The notes under the pieces: generated by a model
Database searches by the model: none
Seen by the model: only the letters and a program-made list of their open reading frames with translations
What the model was told of the DNA's origin: nothing
Shown here: positions 34,341-56,172 of the stretch, one piece after another
How the letters are laid out: the number at the start of each line of letters is the position of its first letter
Position numbering within the stretch: the stretch's first letter is position 1
Program-made: the position numbers and the translations under genes
NCBI RefSeq assembly: GCF_056712565.1
Contig: NZ_CM160072.1
Direction: 5' to 3' (one strand)
DNA: 64,000 nt

Positions 34341-36563
34341 TTGGCTGTTCAATTCGCTTATCCGTGGAACGTCCCACGGTCGGCAATCTCCAGCCCATAC
34401 CTTACTTATGAGCAACAGCATCGCCGCGACCGTATGTTCGCGGCTTTGCTGCATGCAAAAAAGGTGCTTTCTCTCCAGCCCGACTGCGTGCGGTTAGATG
34501 TTTATCGCACTGCTGCGGTGCTGGAGCAAAATCAGGGTAGTCAACGAGCCAATGCATTTTTAATCAGCTTCTGCAAAAAGGCATTGCCGCGTCTTGAACT
34601 GGTCGCAAAAAAATACGAATGCGCTGGTATCAACAGCAAGGTATCAACCGCTGTTTTTGGAAGTCATTTTGATACTCAGCAAATGCAATATCTGTCGTCA
34701 CGCATGGTTAATATGGTCGCCCGATATAACCGTCTCCCGGACATGTCGCGCGCTGATGTTGACCTGTTGGCCGCTGATATTGCTAATTTCATTCGTGGTG
34801 AACTTGCCAACATTAATGACCACGGATTCGGCGAGCTTAAAACGCTGTACACCTGGTATATTCGTGCTGGCTTTATTTCCCTCCAATTCAACGTTATCCC
34901 ACCACATTGGGAGCGGGTTGAAAAAAAATATGTCGGTGCGGATGAAATCGCACCGGCTATCGCCAAAATGTTTAACGATGGGTGGTGGCGCGGTCGTTTG
35001 CGCCGTGTAGCAGCTACGTGGCGCGAACACCTGCAAATTGCAGTCGGCAACGTCAGTAAGAAAAAAAACACTTACGCGAGTAAAAACTGCGTGACTGACT
35101 GGCGTGAACAAAAGCGCCGCACTCGTGAATTTCTCAAAGGTCTGGATCTCGAAGACGAAGACGGCAACCGTATCAGCCTAATTGAAAAATATGATGGCTC
35201 AGTTGCTAACCCTGCGATTCGCCGCTGTGAGCTCATGACCCGCATTCGTGGGTTTGAAAACATCTGTAATGAGCTCGGTTATGTCGGTGAGTTTTACACT
35301 CTAACCGCGCCGTCAAAATATCACGCCACGACTAAAGCCGGTTACCGTAACAGCAAATGGAGCGGTGCCAGCCCGGCTGACACGCAAAACTATCTAACCG
35401 GTATCTGGGCGCGTATCCGTGCCAAACTACATCGGGAAGATGTCCGTATTTTCGGTATTCGTGTCGCCGAGCCCCATCACGACGGCACTCCACACTGGCA
35501 CATGCTGATGTTCATGCTGCCGGAAGATGTTGAATATGTTCGCTCCATCGTCCGTAAATACGCATGGAAAGAAGACCGCCACGAACTGAAAAGCGATAAA
35601 TCCAAAAAAGCACGTTTCCACGCGGAGTCCATTGACCCGGAGAAAGGCAGCGCAACCGGCTATGTTGCTAAATACATTTCAAAAAATATCGACGGTTATG
35701 CTCTCGATGGTGAAACCGATGATGAAAGCGGTGAGCTGCTGAAAGAGACAGCCCCCGCCGTTTCAGCATGGGCTGCGCGCTGGCACATCCGTCAGTTTCA
35801 GTTTATTGGTGGTGCGCCGGTGACGGTTTACCGTGAGTTGCGTCGCCTCGCTGATACCGAAACCGCGCACGGTCTGAGCGTTGAGTTTGCCGCCGTCCAT
35901 GATGCCGCCGACGCTGGTGACTGGGCTGGTTATGTTAATGCTCAGGGTGGGCCGTTTGTCCGTCGCGATGATTTACAGGTGCGCACACTGTATGAACCGC
36001 GTACCGAGCTTAATCAGTACGGTGAGGAAACGGTATGTATTAAGGGGGTCTACGATTCCTCCATAGGTGCAGGAAGCCCGATTTTAACCCGGCTCACTCA
36101 GTGGAAGATTGTTCCGAAGCGTGCTGTTGATTTGCCCGTTGACCTTCAGGACGGCAAAGCCGTCCCTCGGAGTTCTGTCAATAACTGTACGGGAAGCGAA
36201 AGCGATCCACCGATACTGGATTTAACAAAACCACTGAGTCGGCGTGAAAGACGAGAATTGACCAACCGACTCAGGAAGCAAAAGCCAGCAGCACGGCGAA
36301 AATTCATCCACGGAACGGATGAGCAAAACGCAGCTATAGCTAAAACTATCGATGAGATACATCTGACAACCGGCATTAATATCAGCCGGGGCGAAGCCCT
36401 GCACCTGATGGCCGGTGGTAAAAGTTGTTTTGATGGTAAATGGCTACGCGGAACGGCCAAAGGAGAAATATTTTCCGCAGCACCATCGCATGAGGCTAAA
36501 GCTCGGAAAATCCTTAATCGTGTTGCGGCGATGGCTGAAGCATTAAAACCAATACATGAGTAA
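34341..36563 (+). CDS. replication initiation endonuclease (P2 gpA / 186 RepA family)
   Basis: 740 aa; position and size; HUH-like region (TPHWHMLMFM) and tandem tyrosines (YVAKYISKNIDGYAL). Confidence 0.8.
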   Translation: MAVQFAYPWNVPRSAISSPYLTYEQQHRRDRMFAALLHAKKVLSLQPDCVRLDVYRTAAVLEQNQGSQRANAFLISFCKKALPRLELVAKKYECAGINSKVSTAVFGSHFDTQQMQYLSSRMVNMVARYNRLPDMSRADVDLLAADIANFIRGELANINDHGFGELKTLYTWYIRAGFISLQFNVIPPHWERVEKKYVGADEIAPAIAKMFNDGWWRGRLRRVAATWREHLQIAVGNVSKKKNTYASKNCVTDWREQKRRTREFLKGLDLEDEDGNRISLIEKYDGSVANPAIRRCELMTRIRGFENICNELGYVGEFYTLTAPSKYHATTKAGYRNSKWSGASPADTQNYLTGIWARIRAKLHREDVRIFGIRVAEPHHDGTPHWHMLMFMLPEDVEYVRSIVRKYAWKEDRHELKSDKSKKARFHAESIDPEKGSATGYVAKYISKNIDGYALDGETDDESGELLKETAPAVSAWAARWHIRQFQFIGGAPVTVYRELRRLADTETAHGLSVEFAAVHDAADAGDWAGYVNAQGGPFVRRDDLQVRTLYEPRTELNQYGEETVCIKGVYDSSIGAGSPILTRLTQWKIVPKRAVDLPVDLQDGKAVPRSSVNNCTGSESDPPILDLTKPLSRRERRELTNRLRKQKPAARRKFIHGTDEQNAAIAKTIDEIHLTTGINISRGEALHLMAGGKSCFDGKWLRGTAKGEIFSAAPSHEAKARKILNRVAAMAEALKPIHE

Positions 36564-36676: not shown

Positions 36677-36859
36677 ATGGTTGGCGAACATTTCAGCCGA
36701 ACGCAGCAAAAGTGGGCTTGTGTGCAATTTATTGCCGAGGTATCTCTGATTGCAAACTGCAAGCCATCAGACTTAAAGCTCGCGCTCACTCTCATTGCAG
36801 ACCTAGCAAACAGCGAAAATAACGAAACCGAAGATGATAATTTTTATAAGGCTGATTAG
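36677..36859 (+). CDS. small SOS-controlled protein, possible Tum-like antirepressor
   Basis: 60 aa; GGAGGG RBS; directly downstream of the LexA box; position equivalent to 186 tum. Confidence 0.4.
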   Translation: MVGEHFSRTQQKWACVQFIAEVSLIANCKPSDLKLALTLIADLANSENNETEDDNFYKAD

Positions 36860-36862
36860 ATT

Positions 36863-37093
36863 ATGAGAATCAATATCACGTTGGATAAAGAGCAAAAATT
36901 AGGGCAACAGATCATTGATGCTTTTCAGAATGAAATAACACATCGAGTACAATGCGTTTTTCCTGCAACAAAAGTTAACGTTAAGAAAGGGTCAATGACT
37001 GGTGTAGAGGCTATCGGATTCGATAAAGAGGCGGACAGAGAAACATTAGGCAGCATATTACAAGAGATTTGGGAAGACGATAGCTGGCGTTAA
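36863..37093 (+). CDS. DinI-family protein
   Basis: 76 aa; MRINITLDK...QEIWEDDSW resembles E. coli DinI (MRIEVTIAK...QETWESADDW). Confidence 0.8.
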   Translation: MRINITLDKEQKLGQQIIDAFQNEITHRVQCVFPATKVNVKKGSMTGVEAIGFDKEADRETLGSILQEIWEDDSWR

Positions 37094-37292: not shown

Positions 37293-37502
37293 ATGCATCG
37301 ACTACCAGGTGAAATACCGCAGCACAAAACTAAAAGCATCAAACTGATGGCCATCGTTCATCGTTTGCAGCAGATAATGGTCAATGAGAATTTGACACCC
37401 GCAGAGCTGGTCGGGTGTGCCGAAATAGTCAGGGATAATTACGGCAAGCTGGATAGCATCAGCAGGTCGAAACAATACGCACCACCACCACGTCGACGAT
37501 AG
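37293..37502 (+). CDS. hypothetical protein
   Basis: 69 aa; GAGGG RBS; flanked by two copies of a ~30-bp repeat. Confidence 0.4.
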   Translation: MHRLPGEIPQHKTKSIKLMAIVHRLQQIMVNENLTPAELVGCAEIVRDNYGKLDSISRSKQYAPPPRRR

Positions 37503-37576
37503 CAAACGCCGCCGGTTCTGAAACTCGCTTTCAGTACTGGCGGGGGTTGAACAACGAGCACCGCGAGGCGTTAGCA

Positions 37577-38518
37577 TTAATTTATTTTTAATGAATGGTA
37601 ATCTCGTGAGTTGACCGAAGATTTGAGATAACTGCAATCATTAACCGACAGTATTGCCGCTAATAGGCGACATACCAGTGCCTGCATTTGCAGCAATATA
37701 TCGTTACCATATTGACTGTTGTTAACACTTGAGAAACCAAGCGGTTGACCAAAAAAAATAGCCTCATGAAAATTATCATTGCGGATGCCAGAAATGTTTT
37801 TTTTACCTGACACCCATGTGGGGATTGATAACCCATAAATTTTGCACATCCACTTTAATCGCTTGTAATGATTTGGCGGTTTTTTATCAGGAGCCTTGTC
37901 ATGCTCAGCCCACGACAAAGCAAAGCACCCATCAAGTGCCATGTAAAGATACTGGAATTTTTCAAAAGAAAGGTATTGTGGGTTTTGAGATAAGAATAGT
38001 GCATGCACCACTGCCGCAATTCTTTTGGGGGAGTGCGCATCCTTATGTTTGCCATTTATATAATTAAGAGCCAGTTCTATGACTTCTTTTTCAGAGCATC
38101 CAACGAGAATAAAGTCGGTTAACTTAGTGGGCTTGATAGTGGTTGCATCTAAAAAACCAGCGTCAGTGGTTGTCAATCTTATTCCCTTGAAAAAAGAAAG
38201 GCACCACACAATAAAGTTGAGAGTTTCTAACGAGGATGTATTTTTTAATTTTAGTGTGTGCGTTTTGGGCATACTGAATACTCGGTGACTATAAGGCATT
38301 GTGGATATGCCACCATTAAGGTTATATACATCTTGGTTTCCAGGGTATATCCAACCTTTCACAACGTTTTTATCATTATTAACACGCTCCACTTTCTCAT
38401 TGAGACCAGGTAAAGTAAGCAAAGAAAATTGTTCAGTCTCAATGTTAACTTCTACTGGATAGTATCCAAACTCCGACATAATCTCATTGGGTTGCTGTTC
38501 GTCAACTTCACCTTGCAT
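37577..38518 (-). CDS. hypothetical 313-aa protein at the cos-proximal old/tin position
   Basis: Long AT-rich ORF; GGAG RBS; 16-bp perfect palindrome CTCGATAATTATCGAG at 38541-38556 upstream; no motif recognised. Confidence 0.7.
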   Translation of the reverse strand: MQGEVDEQQPNEIMSEFGYYPVEVNIETEQFSLLTLPGLNEKVERVNNDKNVVKGWIYPGNQDVYNLNGGISTMPYSHRVFSMPKTHTLKLKNTSSLETLNFIVWCLSFFKGIRLTTTDAGFLDATTIKPTKLTDFILVGCSEKEVIELALNYINGKHKDAHSPKRIAAVVHALFLSQNPQYLSFEKFQYLYMALDGCFALSWAEHDKAPDKKPPNHYKRLKWMCKIYGLSIPTWVSGKKNISGIRNDNFHEAIFFGQPLGFSSVNNSQYGNDILLQMQALVCRLLAAILSVNDCSYLKSSVNSRDYHSLKIN

Positions 38519-38755
38519 ATCTTTCTCCGTTCAAAAATAGGCTCGATAATTATCGAGAGGCTATCATGTTTGGAAAGAACCAATGTCCGTAATTTTTGTA
38601 AATTTAAGGTGATTTATCAATAAATAAGCTGTGCATGCAACAGGTGCATGGTTCTGCATGCGCCGGGGTTACCCGTTTTGTACGTGCGCCGCAAGAGCTG
38701 GCGGGGATCCAGAGTGGTCATGCAACTGCATTAAAACCGCCCCATAAAGCGGGCA

Positions 38756-38774
38756 GGCGTGGCGGGGAAAGCAT
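38756..38774. other. cos (cohesive-end site), 186-type
   Basis: GGCGTGGCGGGGAAAGCAT, 17/19 identical to P2 cohesive end GGCGAGGCGGGGAAAGCAC as recalled; sits between replication/accessory region and portal gene. Confidence 0.65.
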
Positions 38775-38993
38775 TGCGCGTCAGCAGTGATGCGTAATAA
38801 TAAAAATTATCCTCTGAGCGCGTCGTGATGGCGCTGTCGTGGTCGCTGCTGGTTCGTTGGTGGTCGGGTGTGTTCGTGCGCGTGAGACGCATCTGATGCG
38901 TGATGGTGGTGTGCATGGAAAAGCCACCAGGAGCAGCGGCTTTACAGGAGTGGCAGGATTCAAACTGCTAATTATGTTTCTACTATGATTAAA

Positions 38994-39998
38994 CTAATTT
39001 ACATGTATGTAGAGTTCACCGTCGCCAGACCAATCGGGACACTCTAAAACAAGCCCAAACTGCTTGAATATTTCATCAATGATTATTGTTATCTCCCGAA
39101 AATCACCAAAACCTGTAATGTGCTGGTCATTAAACTTCCCATAAAGATTCTGAAAAGCAATGCCTAATTCTGATAATTGATATCTTATCTTTGAGTTGGA
39201 TAGTGTAAGGGATAGCTTTGGATCGTATTCTTTAATATTGATGTTTAGAGAATGGACATAACCCATCGCATAAGCATAAGAGTTGATGATTAGCCTGATA
39301 CGTTTTTTTACTTCGAGATACATGTCATTCAGAGAAATATTACCGTACTTATAACCCCAGATGAGTTTTTCAATCTCGTCAGATACTTCATTTACAACAG
39401 TGTCAAGATTCTCTAAAAATAAATCGATAGTTTCTTGAGGGGCAGACCCCGAAGACATGTAATTAGCGAGATATTCAGACCATGCACGCGTGGCTGAGAT
39501 AAGAAGCGCGCTACCATACTCGTTGACTGTAAAGTTTTGGGCTAAGCATGTTAGTAAGTTTTTTTCATGTACGTGCACTAATTCATGGTGAATGCGATGG
39601 ATGACTGCGAGGTATCCTTCTTCTTTCAGTTTTAAGAAGCTACCATCATTGAAAAGCTCAACAAAAAAATCAATCGATAGCACAAGGGTATATTCTTCAC
39701 ATAGCCCATCATTGCCAATTTTTGTTACTAACTGCCCGACGGCTGCGCCCTGTTTACTATTGGTAAATGAACTAGGGGATTTGTGTTGGTAAGAGGATGT
39801 TACCTTTTGAAGAGCTTCACTGAAGTTATAGGAAACAATCACGCATTTTAATTTGGAGATATCAAGATTGAGATTTTTTGTTAAAGCTCGGATAGCTTCT
39901 AGTGTGAAATTACCGATATTATTTGCTTCTTGCTCAGTAGCGAAACCTTCGAGGGTTATTTTAAAATCAGTTTCCAAAATATTAATCTCCGCGCCCAT
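38994..39998 (-). CDS. hypothetical 334-aa protein with HExxH zinc-metallopeptidase-like motif (cargo between cos and portal)
   Basis: AT-rich ORF; motif VIHRIHHELVHVHEKN; own sigma70-like promoter upstream. Confidence 0.7.
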   Translation of the reverse strand: MGAEINILETDFKITLEGFATEQEANNIGNFTLEAIRALTKNLNLDISKLKCVIVSYNFSEALQKVTSSYQHKSPSSFTNSKQGAAVGQLVTKIGNDGLCEEYTLVLSIDFFVELFNDGSFLKLKEEGYLAVIHRIHHELVHVHEKNLLTCLAQNFTVNEYGSALLISATRAWSEYLANYMSSGSAPQETIDLFLENLDTVVNEVSDEIEKLIWGYKYGNISLNDMYLEVKKRIRLIINSYAYAMGYVHSLNINIKEYDPKLSLTLSNSKIRYQLSELGIAFQNLYGKFNDQHITGFGDFREITIIIDEIFKQFGLVLECPDWSGDGELYIHVN

Positions 39999-40075: not shown

Positions 40076-41122
40076 TTATTCTGGGTTGTCGAGGGTGTAC
40101 TCTTTGAATCTGATGACCTCCATGCCGAGCCAGTCATTTACCTCCCTGAACCTGTCCTGTAGCGGCGACAGCTCGTTGCGCACAAATACCTTTGCCACCT
40201 TCTCAACATCACCGAGTGAACCGATATTCTCGGGCTTGCCGCCCATGAGCTGGAACGGTACGCGGTGCGCGTCCATCAGATCGGCGGCACTGGCCTTCTT
40301 GATGTTGAAAAAGTCATCCTTTGTGGCGACCTCGCTCAGTGGCACGATTTTGATGCCGTCCGGTTTTCCGCCGGGAGCGTAGAAAAACAGGTTCTTAAAG
40401 TTGCCGAGCCCTTTTGAGTTGCGCATCGCCTCGCGCAGCGATTCGACGTCGGTCGCGCTCTGCGCCGGGTCAGTCACATACATGATGTAACCCGCGTGCG
40501 CGCCGTTCTGATAATACTTGCGGCGGAACAGCGTCGCGGATTCATTCAGCCAGGCGGAATTTAGCGCGCTGAGATATTCGGGCAGGCCGTAAATCTCCTG
40601 ATTAATGTCGGGCTCCAGCAGGTGAAACACGGTATCAGGCGCGAACTCGTGCGGCTGGGTGAAGTTTTCCACAAACCAGAAAATCGAATCGTCGACTCCG
40701 CGTCGGGTGTATTTGGCTGGCGAGGCCAGCAGTTTGATTAACTGGCCGGTGACGCTGTGGCGCTGCTCAAGAAAGGCGTTACCGAACACCAGATAATCGA
40801 GCGCAAAGCGGCTGAAATCCTGACGGGATAACAACGGGTGCGGAATGTAGGTGCTCGCGAGCACGTTACGCTTAACATAAATTGGCGAGCTGTGATGCAC
40901 GGCAGAGCGCAGGCTCTTTGCCAGCCCTGAGAAGCTGACCGGCGGCTCGTACCATTTGCCGTTACTGATGCACTCGACGTAATCCAGAATGTCGCGCTTA
41001 TCGAGTACCGGCACCGGCTCGCCGAAGGTGAACGCTGTCGTTTTTGGCGGTGCGCTGGCGGTCAGTTGTTGTGGTTTGCTGGCCTTTTGTGCGTTGGCTT
41101 TACGGGATTTTTGTTTACCCAT
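40076..41122 (-). CDS. portal protein (P2 gpQ family)
   Basis: 348 aa; size and position adjacent to terminase ATPase. Confidence 0.85.
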   Translation of the reverse strand: MGKQKSRKANAQKASKPQQLTASAPPKTTAFTFGEPVPVLDKRDILDYVECISNGKWYEPPVSFSGLAKSLRSAVHHSSPIYVKRNVLASTYIPHPLLSRQDFSRFALDYLVFGNAFLEQRHSVTGQLIKLLASPAKYTRRGVDDSIFWFVENFTQPHEFAPDTVFHLLEPDINQEIYGLPEYLSALNSAWLNESATLFRRKYYQNGAHAGYIMYVTDPAQSATDVESLREAMRNSKGLGNFKNLFFYAPGGKPDGIKIVPLSEVATKDDFFNIKKASAADLMDAHRVPFQLMGGKPENIGSLGDVEKVAKVFVRNELSPLQDRFREVNDWLGMEVIRFKEYTLDNPE

Positions 41123-41123
41123 T

Positions 41124-42893
41124 TTAGTTGAACTCCAGAATAGATTTAGGCTGCATGCCGCTACCGGCAGAAAGCGGTTCGTTTAACAGGGCGTGCATGG
41201 TCGCCCATGCGATATCGGCGTGGCTGGCTTCCTCGGTGCGGCTGGCCTCATAGGTGGCGCTGCGCCCGCTGCTGGTCATGGTTTTGCGGATGGACATAAA
41301 CGACTGCGTGACGTCGGTTGCTCCGGCGTCGTACTCCAGACAGCCACGGCGAATGGTGTCTTTCGCCTTGAGTACCATTGCGGTTTTCATTTCAGGTGTG
41401 TAACGGATGCCGCGTGCCGCCGGGTAAAATGAGCGCACCAGCTGGAACACGCCGAGACCGAGGCCGGTTGCGTCAATGCCGATGTATTCGACGTTGTATT
41501 TCTCGGTCAGCTTGCGGATGCCCTCTGCCTGTGCTGCAAAATCCATGCCCTTCCACTGGTGGCGCTCCAGCATGCGGAACTTGCCACCAGAGACCACCGG
41601 CGGCGCGAGCACGACGCACCCGGCACTGTCGCCGGTGTGTGACGGGTCGTAGCCAATCCAGACAGGACGAGAGCCGAACGGATGGTCGGCGAACGGGGCA
41701 AAGTCCTCCCATTCCTCCATCACATCGACCATGCAGCGCTGCAGCTCCTCGAACGGGAATACCGACGCTTTATCGTCGACAAACTCGCACATAAACAGGT
41801 TCTTAAAGTCCTCATCACTGTTTTCGCGTTTGAGCTGGTCGAGGTCGAACAGGGTGCAGCCACCCGCAAGGGCGTCCTCAATGGTGACAATCTGCCGCCA
41901 CTGGCCATCGTCGCAGAGCTGGCCACCGGCGAGCGCGCTGTGACTGATGTCGATTTCGATGCGGTCGGCAATCCGGCTGCGCCCCTTGTTGAACAGCTCG
42001 CCAGACCAGAAGGGGTAAGCGCCGTGCGCCAGCGTGGAAGGTGTCGAAAAATAGGTCGAGCGCAGGTGCTTTTGCGAGGCCATGCCCGAGGCGACTTTGC
42101 GCAGTTTCTGAAAATTCGGGATCCAGAATATTTCATCGACATACAGATCGCCGTTATGGCTCTGCGCGGTGTTGGAATTGGTACCGAGAAAAATCAGTTT
42201 TGCGCCGTTGTTACCGATGACAATCGGGTCGCCAGTCAGGTCAACGTCGACCAGTCGCGCAAACTGGATGATGTATTCGCGGAACACGTAAGCCTGCGTT
42301 TTACTGGCTGATAAAAATATCTGGTTATGGCCGGTTTTGAGTACGCGCAGCAGTGCCTCGCGGGAGAAATAGAATGTCGCGCCAATCTGGCGGGATTTGA
42401 GAATGTCACGAATACGGTGCTCCAGTCCTGCGCGGTACCACTGCAACTGGTACTCGAAAGACTGGTCGAAAAATAATTCCTCTAGTTTATCGATAGCCTC
42501 GTCGCTGAAAAAATTCTTTTTCGGCTTTTTGCGCTCCCCTTTGTTGCGGTTGGCGACGTTGGGGTTAAGGTCGGCTTCGTTGCCGGTCTGGCTGTAGCGG
42601 TTGACTCGCGCCAACCGTTCAATCTGCCGTCCGAGCAGGTCAATCTCTTTGAAATCACCCCCTGTCTTTTGCGGCTTGGCGATGAGCTGAATCAGCCTAG
42701 CCTCAAGGCTGCTTTCAACGCGGGAAATCGGCGCGATGCCGTCCCAGCCGTCGCGCTGCTTCCAGCTCTGCACGGTCGGGCGCTTGACCTGCAGCATTTC
42801 GGCAATCTGTGGCACGGAAAAACCCTGCCAGTAAAGCAGCGATGCCTGCCGTCGCGGGTCATGCAACAAGGTTGTATCGGTGGAAATGGTCAT
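41124..42893 (-). CDS. terminase large subunit / ATPase (P2 gpP family)
   Basis: 589 aa, divergent from scaffold/capsid operon. Confidence 0.85.
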   Translation of the reverse strand: MTISTDTTLLHDPRRQASLLYWQGFSVPQIAEMLQVKRPTVQSWKQRDGWDGIAPISRVESSLEARLIQLIAKPQKTGGDFKEIDLLGRQIERLARVNRYSQTGNEADLNPNVANRNKGERKKPKKNFFSDEAIDKLEELFFDQSFEYQLQWYRAGLEHRIRDILKSRQIGATFYFSREALLRVLKTGHNQIFLSASKTQAYVFREYIIQFARLVDVDLTGDPIVIGNNGAKLIFLGTNSNTAQSHNGDLYVDEIFWIPNFQKLRKVASGMASQKHLRSTYFSTPSTLAHGAYPFWSGELFNKGRSRIADRIEIDISHSALAGGQLCDDGQWRQIVTIEDALAGGCTLFDLDQLKRENSDEDFKNLFMCEFVDDKASVFPFEELQRCMVDVMEEWEDFAPFADHPFGSRPVWIGYDPSHTGDSAGCVVLAPPVVSGGKFRMLERHQWKGMDFAAQAEGIRKLTEKYNVEYIGIDATGLGLGVFQLVRSFYPAARGIRYTPEMKTAMVLKAKDTIRRGCLEYDAGATDVTQSFMSIRKTMTSSGRSATYEASRTEEASHADIAWATMHALLNEPLSAGSGMQPKSILEFN

Positions 42894-47956: not shown

Positions 47957-48386
47957 CGCCGTGCCGCAGCTCCGAAATAATCCCGATATGCTGCGCCTTT
48001 TTGCCGACAACGGCCATACCGATTCCCGACTGGCGAGCTCGCTGTCGTTTGAAAAGGTGTACGTGCTTAACGTGGTGGTGACTGACTTCACCGGTGACCT
48101 TGATTTGATATTCGTGCCGGTGCAGGCGTGGCTGCGTGAACATCAGCCGGACATTATGACCACCGACGACGGGCGGGAAAAAGGATTCACCTGGATTATT
48201 GATATCAATAACGACGATTCGCTCGATATCAGTATCAGCCTGAGGCTCACCGAGCGCACACTCGTCAAAGAGGTCGACGGCGCGCTGCACGTCAGCTATG
48301 CCCCTGAGCCGCCACTGCCTGAGCCGGTGACGCGCCCGGTCGAGCTGTACGTTAACGGCGAACTGGTGAGTAAGTGGGATGAGTGA
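47910..48386 (+). CDS. tail completion protein (gpR family)
   Basis: 158 aa; position. Confidence 0.75.
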   Translation: MNSMQKHKSLRKALINAVPQLRNNPDMLRLFADNGHTDSRLASSLSFEKVYVLNVVVTDFTGDLDLIFVPVQAWLREHQPDIMTTDDGREKGFTWIIDINNDDSLDISISLRLTERTLVKEVDGALHVSYAPEPPLPEPVTRPVELYVNGELVSKWDE

Positions 48387-55653: not shown

Positions 55654-56172
55654 ATGGCACTACCCCGCAAACTTAAATATCTGAACATGTTCAATGACGG
55701 CCTTAGCTACATGGGCGTTGTGGAATCCGTGACGCTGCCGAAGCTGACCCGCAAGCTCGAAAACTATCGCGGCGGCGGCATGAATGGCGCGGCGGCGATT
55801 GACCTTGGTCTCGACGATGATGCGCTCACCGTCGAATGGTCTGTCGGTGGCCTGCCTGATGTGGCGCTGTGGGCGCAGTACGCCGCGCCGGGTGCTGACG
55901 CTGTGCCGTTGCGTTTTGCTGGCTCTTACCAACGTGACGACACTGGCGAAATCGTGGCGGTCGAGGTGGTCATGCGTGGCCGTCATAAAGAAATCGACGG
56001 CGGCGAGAATAAGCAGGGTGAAAACACCTCGACCAAACTGTCGACCGTATGCACCTATTACCGCCTCACGATTGATGGTAGCGACGTCATCGAAATCGAC
56101 ACCGTCAACATGGTTGAGAAGGTGAACGGCGTCGACCGTCTGGAACAGCACCGCCGCGCAATCGGGCTGTAA
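55654..56172 (+). CDS. tail tube protein (gpFII family)
   Basis: 172 aa. Confidence 0.85.
   Translation: MALPRKLKYLNMFNDGLSYMGVVESVTLPKLTRKLENYRGGGMNGAAAIDLGLDDDALTVEWSVGGLPDVALWAQYAAPGADAVPLRFAGSYQRDDTGEIVAVEVVMRGRHKEIDGGENKQGENTSTKLSTVCTYYRLTIDGSDVIEIDTVNMVEKVNGVDRLEQHRRAIGL

What the first reader, a model, noticed from the sequence alone, without database searches (positions are those of the whole stretch)
37577..38755. Unknown 313-aa protein at the old/tin-equivalent position next to cos, with a perfect 16-bp palindrome upstream
This AT-rich gene is transcribed toward the replication region at the right genome end, the position P2 uses for its exclusion genes old and tin. It has no similarity I can recognise to Old (no ATPase motifs) or any other family. 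A perfect palindrome CTCGATAATTATCGAG lies between the putative promoter and the RBS, which suggests operator control.
Basis: partly seen in the sequence, partly recalled or inferred. Interest (0 to 1): 0.7.

Follow-up and report, generated by a model that had tools for sequence, protein, structure and literature searches.

The report
Compact ApeA-like HEPN nuclease in P2 hotspot
The "unknown" 313-aa gene next to the cos site of this P2-like E. coli prophage is a small HEPN-type ribonuclease distantly resembling the ApeA anti-phage protein, so it is most likely an untested single-gene phage-exclusion gene, and the palindrome upstream of it is real but not good evidence for an operator.

Summary
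The ORF (37577-38518, minus strand, 313 aa, 38.5% GC) and the palindrome CTCGATAATTATCGAG (38542-38557) are both there. The gene lies in the known gpA-cos-gpQ hotspot of a P2-like prophage, 239 bp from cos.

In every context examined the gene has no conserved partner and sits on a mobile element. Several copies lie beside known defence genes: Gabija, AbiH plus TIR, type I R-M plus GmrSD, and AbiP2.

Best reading: a compact, sensor-fused HEPN RNase acting as single-gene abortive or exclusion defence. This is untested.

The perfect palindrome occurs in two of five leader alleles (5-6 of 8 pairs elsewhere). About one such palindrome is expected per window. It also scores as a terminator-like hairpin and overlaps a candidate -10, so operator control is unproven.

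The parts
37577..38518 (-). ORF313 coding sequence (313 aa). It has two domains: an N-terminal mixed beta/alpha domain (about aa 10-158) and a C-terminal HEPN domain (about aa 160-300).
   Evidence: ORF list and sequence. 398 homologues. 656 clusters at 50% identity. Model with pLDDT 93.8, pTM 0.91. dN/dS 0.18-0.33.
37766..37783 (-). Codons for R246-N-D-N-F-H251, the Rx4H catalytic motif of the HEPN domain.
   Evidence: Read directly from the sequence. R246 and H251 are invariant, and N247 and E252 are at least 90% conserved, in 115 sequences down to 24% identity.
38525..38528 (-). Ribosome-binding site GGAG, 6 nt upstream of the ATG.
   Evidence: Sequence. Conserved in four of the five leader alleles (GAGAGG in the Klebsiella allele). 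Annotated as the RBS of ORF313 in P2-EC67.
38542..38557 (.). Perfect 16-bp palindrome CTCGATAATTATCGAG. It contains a candidate -10 hexamer GATAAT (38549-38554, minus strand).
   Evidence: -10 candidate. Allele comparison.
38532..38565 (-). Extended imperfect inverted repeat (GATAGCC..CCTAT around the palindrome) followed by TTTTT. It is a terminator-like or leader hairpin immediately upstream of the RBS.
   Evidence: Terminator-like scan hit. RNAfold of three leader alleles and then of the Enterobacter and Klebsiella leaders. 87-90% of cells paired across the five alleles against 31-38% in slid controls, but covariation is not significant.
38592..38620 (-). Candidate sigma-70 promoter (TTGATA, 17 nt spacer, AAAAAT) inside the cassette-specific upstream DNA. 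This is a consensus match only.
   Evidence: The block CTTAAATTTACAAAA is invariant in the five upstream sequences aligned.
37503..38626 (.). Approximate extent of the mobile cassette (gene plus 108 bp of its own upstream DNA). It lies between the backbone ORF69 and the backbone cos-flanking DNA.
   Evidence: ORF69 occurs in 34 P2-like phage records, most of which lack ORF313. Phages and E. coli genomes without ORF313 match the window only from about 38627 onwards.
38757..38775 (.). cos cohesive-end sequence of the P2-like prophage. It marks the hotspot and is not part of the cassette.
   Evidence: Aligns with the first bases of the linear genome record of Salmonella phage MET_P1_103_31. The P2 cos sequence itself is recalled from knowledge.

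Best explanation
ORF313 is a compact, single-polypeptide HEPN ribonuclease. It has an N-terminal domain of about 150 aa with many conserved aromatic and charged residues, which I infer to be a sensor or regulatory domain. This is fused to a C-terminal HEPN domain carrying the catalytic RNxxxH motif.

The gene is a self-contained cassette of about 1.1 kb with its own upstream region. It is carried as cargo in the cos-proximal defence hotspot of P2-like prophages and on other mobile elements.

The most likely mode of action is as follows. The protein is made in the lysogen and kept inactive. A cue produced by an infecting competitor phage acts through the N-terminal domain, or through the pocket between the N-terminal and HEPN domains. 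Two HEPN domains then form a composite active site that cuts RNA (tRNA anticodon loops or mRNA), stopping translation and aborting the infection. This is how the larger ApeA, HepS and DARNA proteins work.

Shown here:
- the HEPN fold and the invariant motif;
- the two-domain architecture;
- solo gene organisation;
- the hotspot position;
- mobile-element and defence-island neighbourhoods.

Inferred:
- RNase activity;
- dimerisation;
- the trigger and the RNA target;
- expression in the lysogen;
- the anti-phage phenotype.

The palindrome belongs to the cassette's leader or promoter region and probably tunes expression of a potentially toxic protein. Whether it acts as a DNA operator or as an RNA hairpin or attenuator is not resolved.
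For: Motif: R246 and H251 are invariant, and N247 and E252 are at least 90% conserved, in 115 sequences down to 24% identity. They are invariant again in a separate alignment of the 19 most divergent members.

Fold:
- The model has pLDDT 93.8 and pTM 0.91.
- A first, poorer model already gave mostly HEPN hits.

Relation to ApeA:
- Foldseek against AFDB50 finds full-length neighbours of about 300 aa (TM 0.8-0.98). UniProt names them 'Apea-like HEPN domain-containing' or 'ApeA N-terminal domain-containing' proteins.
- Foldseek also gives weaker full-length matches (E 1e-4 to 1e-5, TMq about 0.5) to 440-480 aa ApeA-NTD proteins.
- Family member P0115 carries the same UniProt name.

Genomic context:
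- The gpA-cos-gpQ interval is an established defence hotspot, and this exact locus (WP_001622301 + WP_001622299 + ...) is listed there as 'hypothetical' (PMC9122126).
- Canonical HEPN_Apea genes are also listed as P2 and P4 hotspot cargo in that paper's tables.
- There is no conserved neighbour in any of the contexts examined, and the gene is always on a mobile element or island (details in the full report).
- Defence genes lie next to it in P. aeruginosa (Gabija GajA/GajB), in Providencia (DUF3800, AbiH, TIR_2; and type I R-M plus GmrSD), in an Acinetobacter prophage (CHAT and AbiEi nearby), and in a P2-type contig (AbiP2 reverse transcriptase directly upstream).

Gene quality: low GC and dN/dS 0.18-0.33 show a horizontally acquired gene under selection.

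Precedent: ApeA is a single-protein HEPN tRNA anticodon nuclease activated through a pocket formed by the N-terminal and HEPN domains (10.64898/2026.01.26.701840).
Against: - No experiment exists for any member of this family that I could find.
- No sequence profile detects it. There is no hit to any Pfam family, HEPN_Apea and ApeA_NTD1 included, for the query at E <= 10 or for any of 115 members at E <= 0.001.
- The query and ten divergent members have no PADLOC ApeA hit, and the query has no NCBIfam hit.
- The ApeA link rests on Foldseek and on automatic UniProt names.
- The protein is half the size of validated ApeA (about 580-600 aa) and lacks the Mid domain.
- The function of the N-terminal domain is entirely inferred.
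- One context (Aeromonas, downstream of an AlkZ-like gene among housekeeping genes) shows no defence neighbours.
- A constitutively made HEPN toxin with no antitoxin needs an auto-inhibition mechanism, which is not demonstrated.
Confidence: 0.6

Rival explanations
1. The protein is the toxin of an addiction or toxin-antitoxin-type module that stabilises the prophage. It would be neutralised by a non-protein antitoxin, for example the short leader RNA that would end at the hairpin plus T-run (a type III-like arrangement, as for AbiF or ToxIN), rather than acting as an infection-triggered defence.
Against: There is no tandem repeat array upstream, no Rfam match, and no adjacent MNT or other conserved partner gene in any context. 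Homologues outside P2 have unrelated upstream regions without this element. The hairpin is weak (-5.1 kcal/mol for the 16-mer).
Confidence: 0.1
2. The nuclease serves the phage itself rather than the lysogen. It might process RNA during P2 lytic growth, take over the host, or interfere with the P4 satellite.
For: The gene lies next to cos and downstream of the late Q-P genes on the same strand. P2 and P4 share the cos-adjacent hotspot (PMC9122126).
Against: - It is present in only about 44 of 5426 complete E. coli genomes and 7 phage records, and is replaced by unrelated cargo in most P2-like phages, so it is dispensable for the phage.
- The same gene occurs in integrative elements, integrase islands and an unrelated prophage.
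- A conserved terminator-like hairpin just past cos (38737-38756) would insulate it from late transcription (inference).
Confidence: 0.08
3. The HEPN domain is a non-catalytic ligand- or nucleic-acid-binding module, and the protein is a regulator or scaffold rather than a nuclease.
Against: R and H of the Rx4H motif are invariant across 115 diverse members, together with N247 and E252. This is the pattern of catalytic HEPN families (PMC3710099). The deeper model is confident across this segment.
Confidence: 0.05
4. Sub-claim on the palindrome: it is a DNA operator bound by a dimeric phage or host repressor that controls ORF313.
For: - The dyad is perfect over 16 bp and lies between the candidate -35/-10 and the RBS. 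Alternatively it overlaps the candidate -10 GATAAT.
- The core CGAnAATTATCG is kept in four of the five alleles (TGAAAATTATCG in the Klebsiella allele).
- All four differences between the window allele and the common allele restore or keep symmetry, including one compensatory pair (positions 2 and 15).
Against: - The dyad is perfect in only two of five alleles (5-6 of 8 pairs otherwise).
- It is no better conserved than the flanking leader.
- About one such palindrome is expected per window.
- The only other match in the window needs 3 mismatches and is within chance.
- It is not a Fur box (8 mismatches to the 19-mer).
- Homologues outside P2 lack it.
- The cassette encodes no DNA-binding protein.
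Confidence: 0.2

Closest known systems
ApeA (single-gene HEPN defence system of Gao et al. 2020; Ec1ApeA and Ec2ApeA characterised in 10.64898/2026.01.26.701840 and 10.64898/2026.03.20.713152)
   Same: - A single protein with no partner gene.
- A non-HEPN N-terminal region plus a C-terminal HEPN domain with an R-N-x3-H type motif (RNKITH in Ec1ApeA, RNDNFH here).
- Extra elements between the motif helix (H3) and the last HEPN helix (H4), as described for HEPN_ApeA (one search compared).
- Found as cargo of P2 and P4 hotspots.
- AFDB neighbours of ORF313 carry ApeA-derived names, and 440-480 aa ApeA-NTD proteins are weak full-length Foldseek hits.
   Different: - 313 aa against about 580-600 aa (467 aa for the 'minimal' homologue).
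- No Mid domain.
- No match to any Pfam family or to the PADLOC ApeA model.
- None of its AFDB neighbours appears in the part read (part 1 of 2) of the published ApeA homologue list.
- Oligomeric state, ligand and RNA target are unknown.
HepS (Gifsy-1 prophage HEPN protein) and DARNA/PD-T7-3 (single-protein HEPN tRNases)
   Different: No sequence relationship was detected. DARNA has its HEPN domain at the N-terminus (R117-x4-H122), whereas ORF313 has it at the C-terminus. Triggers there are the lambda J tail tip and ssDNA presented by phage SSB; the trigger here is unknown.
P2 Old and Tin (the exclusion genes at this slot in P2 itself)
   Same: The same genomic slot, between the replication gene A side and cos. 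Cargo that is not needed by the phage.
   Different: Old is an ABC-ATPase plus TOPRIM nuclease (10.64898/2026.07.10.737580, abstract). ORF313 has neither domain, shares no similarity with it, and uses a HEPN fold.
HepT/MntA HEPN toxin-antitoxin pairs
   Different: There is no MNT antitoxin gene next to it in any context. ORF313 carries an additional N-terminal domain of about 150 aa in the same polypeptide.

Membership tests
HEPN superfamily | Conserved Rx4-6H motif | tested here: met
   R246-NDNF-H251. R and H are invariant in 27, 115 and 19-sequence alignments.
HEPN superfamily | Alpha-helical HEPN bundle fold similar to solved HEPN domains | tested here: met
HEPN superfamily | Dimeric composite active site and RNase activity | not testable with these tools
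   No multimer prediction or biochemistry is available. Inferred from the family's known behaviour.
ApeA defence system / Pfam HEPN_Apea + ApeA_NTD1 | Significant match to the Pfam HEPN_Apea or ApeA_NTD1 profile | tested here: not met
   No Pfam hit at E <= 10 for the query. No Pfam hit at E <= 0.001 for any of 115 family members scanned singly, and the four weak hits (E 0.01-0.1) are to unrelated families.
ApeA defence system / Pfam HEPN_Apea + ApeA_NTD1 | Match to the PADLOC ApeA model | tested here: not met
   No PADLOC family at E <= 1 for the query. No ApeA hit at E <= 10 for ten divergent members.
ApeA defence system / Pfam HEPN_Apea + ApeA_NTD1 | Three-domain protein (N, Mid, HEPN_ApeA) of about 470-600 aa | tested here: not met
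   313 aa, with two domains in the model.
ApeA defence system / Pfam HEPN_Apea + ApeA_NTD1 | Structural similarity to ApeA-type proteins over both domains | tested here: inconclusive
ApeA defence system / Pfam HEPN_Apea + ApeA_NTD1 | Stand-alone gene with no conserved partner | tested here: met
   The contexts examined share no neighbour.
ApeA defence system / Pfam HEPN_Apea + ApeA_NTD1 | Anti-phage phenotype, doughnut oligomer, ligand-activated tRNA anticodon cleavage | not testable with these tools
   Needs phage challenge, SEC-MALS or cryo-EM, and RNA assays.
P2-like cos-proximal defence hotspot cargo (Rousset et al. 2022) | Variable gene(s) between gpA and gpQ, adjacent to cos | tested here: met
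   Gene order. The locus is listed in Table S5 of PMC9122126. The slot is variable among phages and E. coli genomes.
OLD family (P2 Old) | ABC-type ATPase plus TOPRIM nuclease domains | tested here: not met
   No Pfam or PADLOC hit. The fold is HEPN.
HepT/MntA-type HEPN toxin-antitoxin | Adjacent MNT (nucleotidyltransferase) antitoxin gene | tested here: not met
   There is no such neighbour in any locus. The convergent small ORF69 is a P2 backbone gene.
Type III toxin-antitoxin (ToxIN/AbiF-like) | Tandem repeat RNA antitoxin array upstream of the toxin gene, ended by a terminator | tested here: not met
   No tandem repeats at 37400-39100. Only the terminator-like hairpin is present.

The most novel reading that the evidence does not exclude
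ORF313 is the founding example of an unrecognised, widespread single-gene defence system: a 'mini-ApeA' of about 310 aa. Its family comprises 656 clusters at 50% identity and is invisible to Pfam and PADLOC (NCBIfam was tried on the query only). Its small N-terminal domain would sense an infection cue different from ApeA's deoxydinucleotides and switch on a minimal HEPN RNase. In P2-like phages, its expression would be gated by a leader hairpin or dyad element.
Probability: 0.3. Interest if true: 0.6.

Novelty: new variant of a known kind. Interest (0 to 1): 0.45.

Why it matters
If the phenotype is confirmed, it adds a very compact sensor-plus-HEPN nuclease to the known single-protein abortive-infection systems. 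It would show that the ApeA architecture can be reduced to about half its size.

It would also expose a blind spot in current defence-finder libraries. The family is common in Enterobacterales, Pseudomonas, Acinetobacter and Aeromonas mobile elements, yet it is annotated everywhere as 'hypothetical'.

Its small size would make it a tractable model for how a HEPN nuclease is held inactive and then triggered within one polypeptide. If no phenotype is found, it remains one more hypothetical cargo gene of an already well-described hotspot.

Tried and rejected
Protein family searches:
- Pfam on the query and on 27 and 115 family members: nothing.
- NCBIfam (on the query): nothing.
- PADLOC (on the query and ten divergent members): nothing relevant.
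- PHROGs: only the unknown-function family phrog_5937.

PDB sequence searches:
- Profile A1 gave a short hit to ribonucleotide reductase R2 (E 0.007, 40 residues). I reject it as chance.
- Profile A2 gave a weak N-terminal resemblance to bacterial RyR-domain proteins (E 0.004 for a two-copy chimera, per-domain i-E 0.2-2.6). This is not significant and is kept only as a lead.

Other searches:
- A third homologue search with the most divergent members, meant to bridge to long ApeA proteins, found only 8 family members.
- No Rfam family matches 37400-39100.
- No tandem repeats.

Candidate partner genes:
- ORF69 (37293-37502) was rejected as a partner or antitoxin. It is a P2 backbone gene present in 34 phage records, most without ORF313.
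- ORF334 was rejected as a partner. The two genes assort independently in E. coli, and ORF334 is absent from the other phages that carry ORF313.

Literature:
- 'Putative HEPN' pFR103 of Rousset et al., from the P2 hotspot of E. coli S88, is a different protein.
- DS-40 (WP_097419291, 311 aa) of DefensePredictor is also a different protein, and no ORF313 peptide string occurs in the supplements held for that paper.
- No paper mentions the protein accessions.
- The Odegrip et al. 2006 paper, which I recall as the source of the P2-EC67 ORF313 record, is not held.

The Fur-box idea for GATAAT..ATTATC was rejected: 8 mismatches to the 19-mer and 5 to the 7-1-7 motif.
Full report
**What is in the sequence**

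The window carries a P2-like prophage. The gene order is:
- replication endonuclease A (34341-36563, +);
- a small ORF (36677-36859);
- a DinI-like gene (36863-37093);
- a 69-aa ORF (37293-37502, +);
- the 313-aa ORF on the minus strand (37577-38518);
- cos;
- a 334-aa ORF (38994-39998, -);
- portal Q (40076-41122, -);
- terminase P (41124-42893, -).

The DNA is 100% identical to chromosomes of E. coli SF-468, MS15052 and APEC E18055. There all four ORFs in the interval are annotated 'hypothetical protein'.

cos (GGCGTGGCGGGGAAAGCAT, 38757-38775) was placed by alignment with the physical end of the linear record of Salmonella phage MET_P1_103_31. The ORF starts with ATG and has GGAG 6 nt upstream. 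It is 38.5% GC against 51.2% for the window. Alleles differ with dN/dS 0.18-0.33. It is therefore a real, horizontally acquired gene under selection.

The palindrome CTCGATAATTATCGAG lies at 38542-38557.

**The slot**

The interval between gpA and gpQ around cos is the P2 'old/tin' region. It has been described as a hotspot of anti-phage systems, with 1,650 gene arrangements in 18,150 E. coli loci (PMC9122126). Table S5 of that paper lists exactly this locus as 'hypothetical + hypothetical + hypothetical + DinI + ...': WP_001622301 + WP_001622299 + WP_001622297 + WP_001622296 + .... It was not among the systems tested. The same gene is ORF313 of P2-EC67 (AM157369, 90% identical).

About 44 of 5426 complete E. 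coli genomes carry the gene with its flanks, as do 7 phage records.

I mapped the limits of the mobile unit as follows:
- The convergent 69-aa ORF is a backbone gene, present in 34 P2-like phage records, most without ORF313.
- Phages and genomes lacking ORF313 match the window only from about 38627 towards cos.
- The cassette is therefore about 37503-38626: the gene plus 108 bp of its own upstream DNA, which contains the palindrome.

The AT-rich ORF334 on the other side of cos assorts independently. Sixteen genomes have both genes and others have one or the other. The other phages that carry ORF313 have Q directly beyond cos.

**What the protein is**

Standard profile libraries see nothing:
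- Pfam, NCBIfam and PADLOC give no hit.
- PHROGs gives only the unknown-function family phrog_5937.

The protein nevertheless has 398 homologues in the 90%-clustered database. They are spread over Enterobacterales, Providencia, Aeromonas, Pseudomonas, Acinetobacter and Stenotrophomonas at 45-50% identity. It also has 656 representative clusters at 50% identity, and the listed full-length hits are about 300 aa.

In an alignment of 115 members reaching 24% identity, six positions are invariant: G112, E186, R246, H251, G261 and R284. N247 and E252 are at least 90% conserved. R246-N-D-N-F-H251 is the Rx4-6H signature of catalytic HEPN ribonucleases (PMC3710099).

A first AlphaFold model from 27 sequences was mediocre (pLDDT 80, low around the motif). 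The model from 115 sequences is confident (pLDDT 93.8, pTM 0.91). It shows two domains:
- an N-terminal mixed beta/alpha domain (about 10-158);
- a C-terminal helical domain (about 160-300), in which the motif sits in helix 242-252. A small beta-hairpin and a short helix follow before the last long helix (274-289).

Foldseek against AFDB50 finds full-length neighbours of about 300 aa at TM 0.8-0.98. [quoted passage not shown] It also finds weaker full-length matches (E 1e-4 to 1e-5, TMq about 0.5) to 440-480 aa ApeA-NTD proteins. One sequence homologue (P0115, A0A3A8EY04) carries the same name.

**How far the ApeA link goes**

ApeA is a validated single-gene defence. It is a protein of about 580-600 aa with N-terminal, Mid and split HEPN_ApeA domains. 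It forms decamers or dodecamers and cleaves tRNA anticodon loops. In Ec2ApeA it is switched on when 5'-phosphorylated deoxydinucleotides bind a pocket between the N-terminal and HEPN domains (10.64898/2026.01.26.701840). Ec1ApeA also cleaves ssRNA phage genomes (10.64898/2026.03.20.713152).

ORF313 shares the following with ApeA:
- the logic of an N-terminal non-HEPN region fused to a C-terminal RNxxxH HEPN domain with insertions;
- the solo-gene organisation;
- the habitat, since HEPN_Apea genes are listed in both the P2 and P4 hotspot tables.

It fails every sequence-profile test of membership that I could run:
- no Pfam hit for any of 115 members;
- no PADLOC ApeA hit;
- a further search seeded with the most divergent members did not bridge to long ApeA proteins.

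It is also half the size, with no Mid domain. None of its AFDB neighbours is in the part I read (part 1 of 2) of the published ApeA homologue list. I therefore file it as a compact ApeA-like variant within the HEPN superfamily, not as a member of the ApeA family proper.

**Genomic company**

Besides the P2 slot in E. coli, Yersinia, Salmonella, Klebsiella and Enterobacter phages or prophages, the gene occurs in these contexts:
- alone in a P. aeruginosa ICE-like island, two genes from a Gabija pair (GajA-type OLD/TOPRIM ATPase plus UvrD helicase);
- in a Providencia integrase island at smpB, between a DUF3800 gene and AbiH plus a TIR_2 protein;
- in another Providencia strain, right after a type I R-M operon and a GmrSD gene;
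- in Pseudomonas integrase and T4SS elements;
- as an opposite-strand moron inside the head-gene block of an Acinetobacter prophage, with CHAT and AbiEi genes nearby;
- near Tn7-like TniB in Stenotrophomonas;
- next to a Peptidase_M78 gene and a Cytotoxic-domain gene in Acinetobacter;
- directly downstream of an AbiP2 reverse transcriptase (PADLOC E 4e-160) on a P2-type contig.

Only the Aeromonas context looks unremarkable. No neighbour is shared between contexts, so the protein acts alone. The association with mobile elements and with known defence genes is the usual signature of defence cargo.

**Most likely mechanism**

A protein made in the lysogen is held inactive. An infection cue acts through the N-terminal domain or the inter-domain pocket. 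HEPN domains pair to form the composite R/H site. RNA, most likely tRNA or mRNA, is cut, translation stops and the infection aborts.

The fold, motif, architecture, solo status and neighbourhoods are shown. The enzymology, trigger, target, expression and phenotype are inferred by analogy with ApeA, HepS and DARNA. I put 0.6 on this overall. I put about 0.9 on 'catalytic-type HEPN protein' and about 0.7 on 'related to ApeA-like proteins'.

**The palindrome**

Statistically it is unremarkable at window scale: 2 perfect 16-mers are observed and 1.05 are expected.

Five distinct leader alleles were collected from P2-borne copies:

| Allele | 16-mer | Symmetric pairs |
|---|---|---|
| Window | CTCGATAATTATCGAG | 8 of 8 |
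| Enterobacter prophage (its protein is only 73% identical) | CTCGATAATTATCGAG | 8 of 8 |
| Commonest (P2-EC67, Yersinia phages, several E. coli) | TACGAGAATTATCGTG | 6 of 8 |
| Salmonella type | TACGAGAATTATCGAG | 5 of 8 |
| Klebsiella type | CATGAAAATTATCGAG | 5 of 8 |

The four differences between the window allele and the common allele all keep or create symmetry, and one pair is compensatory. That is suggestive. However, the element is no better conserved than its flanks.

In every allele the dyad is embedded in a longer imperfect inverted repeat (GATAGsC...GsCTAT) followed by TTTTT, just before the RBS. The consensus scan scores this as terminator-like on the coding strand. As RNA it stays 87-90% paired across alleles, against 31-38% in slid controls. 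Covariation is not significant with five sequences, and the hairpin is weak (-5.1 kcal/mol for the 16-mer).

Two candidate promoters exist:
- TTGATA, 17 nt, AAAAAT at 38620-38592, which would put the dyad in the 5' leader;
- TTTCCA, 16 nt, GATAAT at 38576-38549, whose -10 lies inside the dyad.

Further points against a specific regulator:
- The only other match in the window (55756-55771) needs three mismatches and is within chance.
- The element is not a Fur box.
- There is no Rfam match and no repeat array.
- Homologues outside P2 have unrelated upstream regions.

The element is therefore a real, cassette-specific feature that probably affects expression. Operator, attenuator or stability hairpin, and no function all remain open. 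I give the operator reading about 0.2.

**Novelty and verdict**

The hotspot, and the idea that its cargo is defensive, are established. HEPN single-protein defences are established. ApeA-type genes are known cargo of this very hotspot.

What is new is the recognition that this 'hypothetical' gene, and a family of several hundred clusters, is a half-size ApeA-like HEPN nuclease. Pfam and PADLOC miss the family, NCBIfam misses the query, and as far as I could find no member has been tested.

That makes it a reasonable candidate for experiment rather than a surprise: a new variant of a known kind, interest 0.45.

Noticed in passing
window 38994-39998 (- strand): ORF334 is a second AT-rich cargo gene, on the other side of cos between cos and portal Q. 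It has 78 homologues, all 'hypothetical' (Enterobacterales, Shewanella, Psychromonas), and is very common in Salmonella. It has no Pfam, PADLOC or NCBIfam hit. Invariant H137 H138 E139 H142 E145 (HHELVHVHE) form an HExxH zincin-like motif, so it may be a metallopeptidase. It assorts independently of ORF313.
   Followed up: partly
L026:246-2854: On a metagenome contig, an AbiP2 defence reverse transcriptase (PADLOC E 4e-160) lies 99 bp upstream of a 62%-identical ORF313 homologue on the same strand. This is either stacked hotspot cargo or a possible functional pairing.
   Followed up: partly
ORF313 aa ~14-67 (window ~38318-38479); L029:4017-4898: The family profile's N-terminus weakly resembles bacterial RyR-domain proteins (6uhi E 0.004; per-domain i-E 0.2-2.6, so not significant). 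Separately, a RyR-domain gene lies about 3 kb from the homologue in the Acinetobacter prophage. This is probably coincidence.
   Followed up: partly
window 38634-38662 and 38737-38756: The backbone DNA next to cos has two features. One is an inverted repeat GCATGCA..N15..TGCATGC that is conserved in P2-like phages. The other is a GC-rich terminator-like hairpin with a T-run just past cos on the Q-P strand. They may be packaging signals, or a terminator that insulates the hotspot from late transcription.
   Followed up: no
window 37293-37502 (+) and 38635-38790 (+): ORF69 is a conserved P2 backbone gene of unknown function (phrog_11386). A 156-nt ORF at the equivalent position in two other E. 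coli records is named 'meiotically up-regulated 80 protein' in RefSeq, which looks like a misnomer. The 51-aa ORF annotated across cos (WP_164966458.1) is probably spurious.
   Followed up: partly
window 55756-55771: This is the only other match to the palindrome in the window, and it needs 3 mismatches (CTCGAAAACTATCGCG). It is within chance expectation, and its gene context was not examined.
   Followed up: no
window 48196-48211: A second perfect 16-bp palindrome, TTATTGATATCAATAA, lies elsewhere in the window. It was not examined.
   Followed up: no
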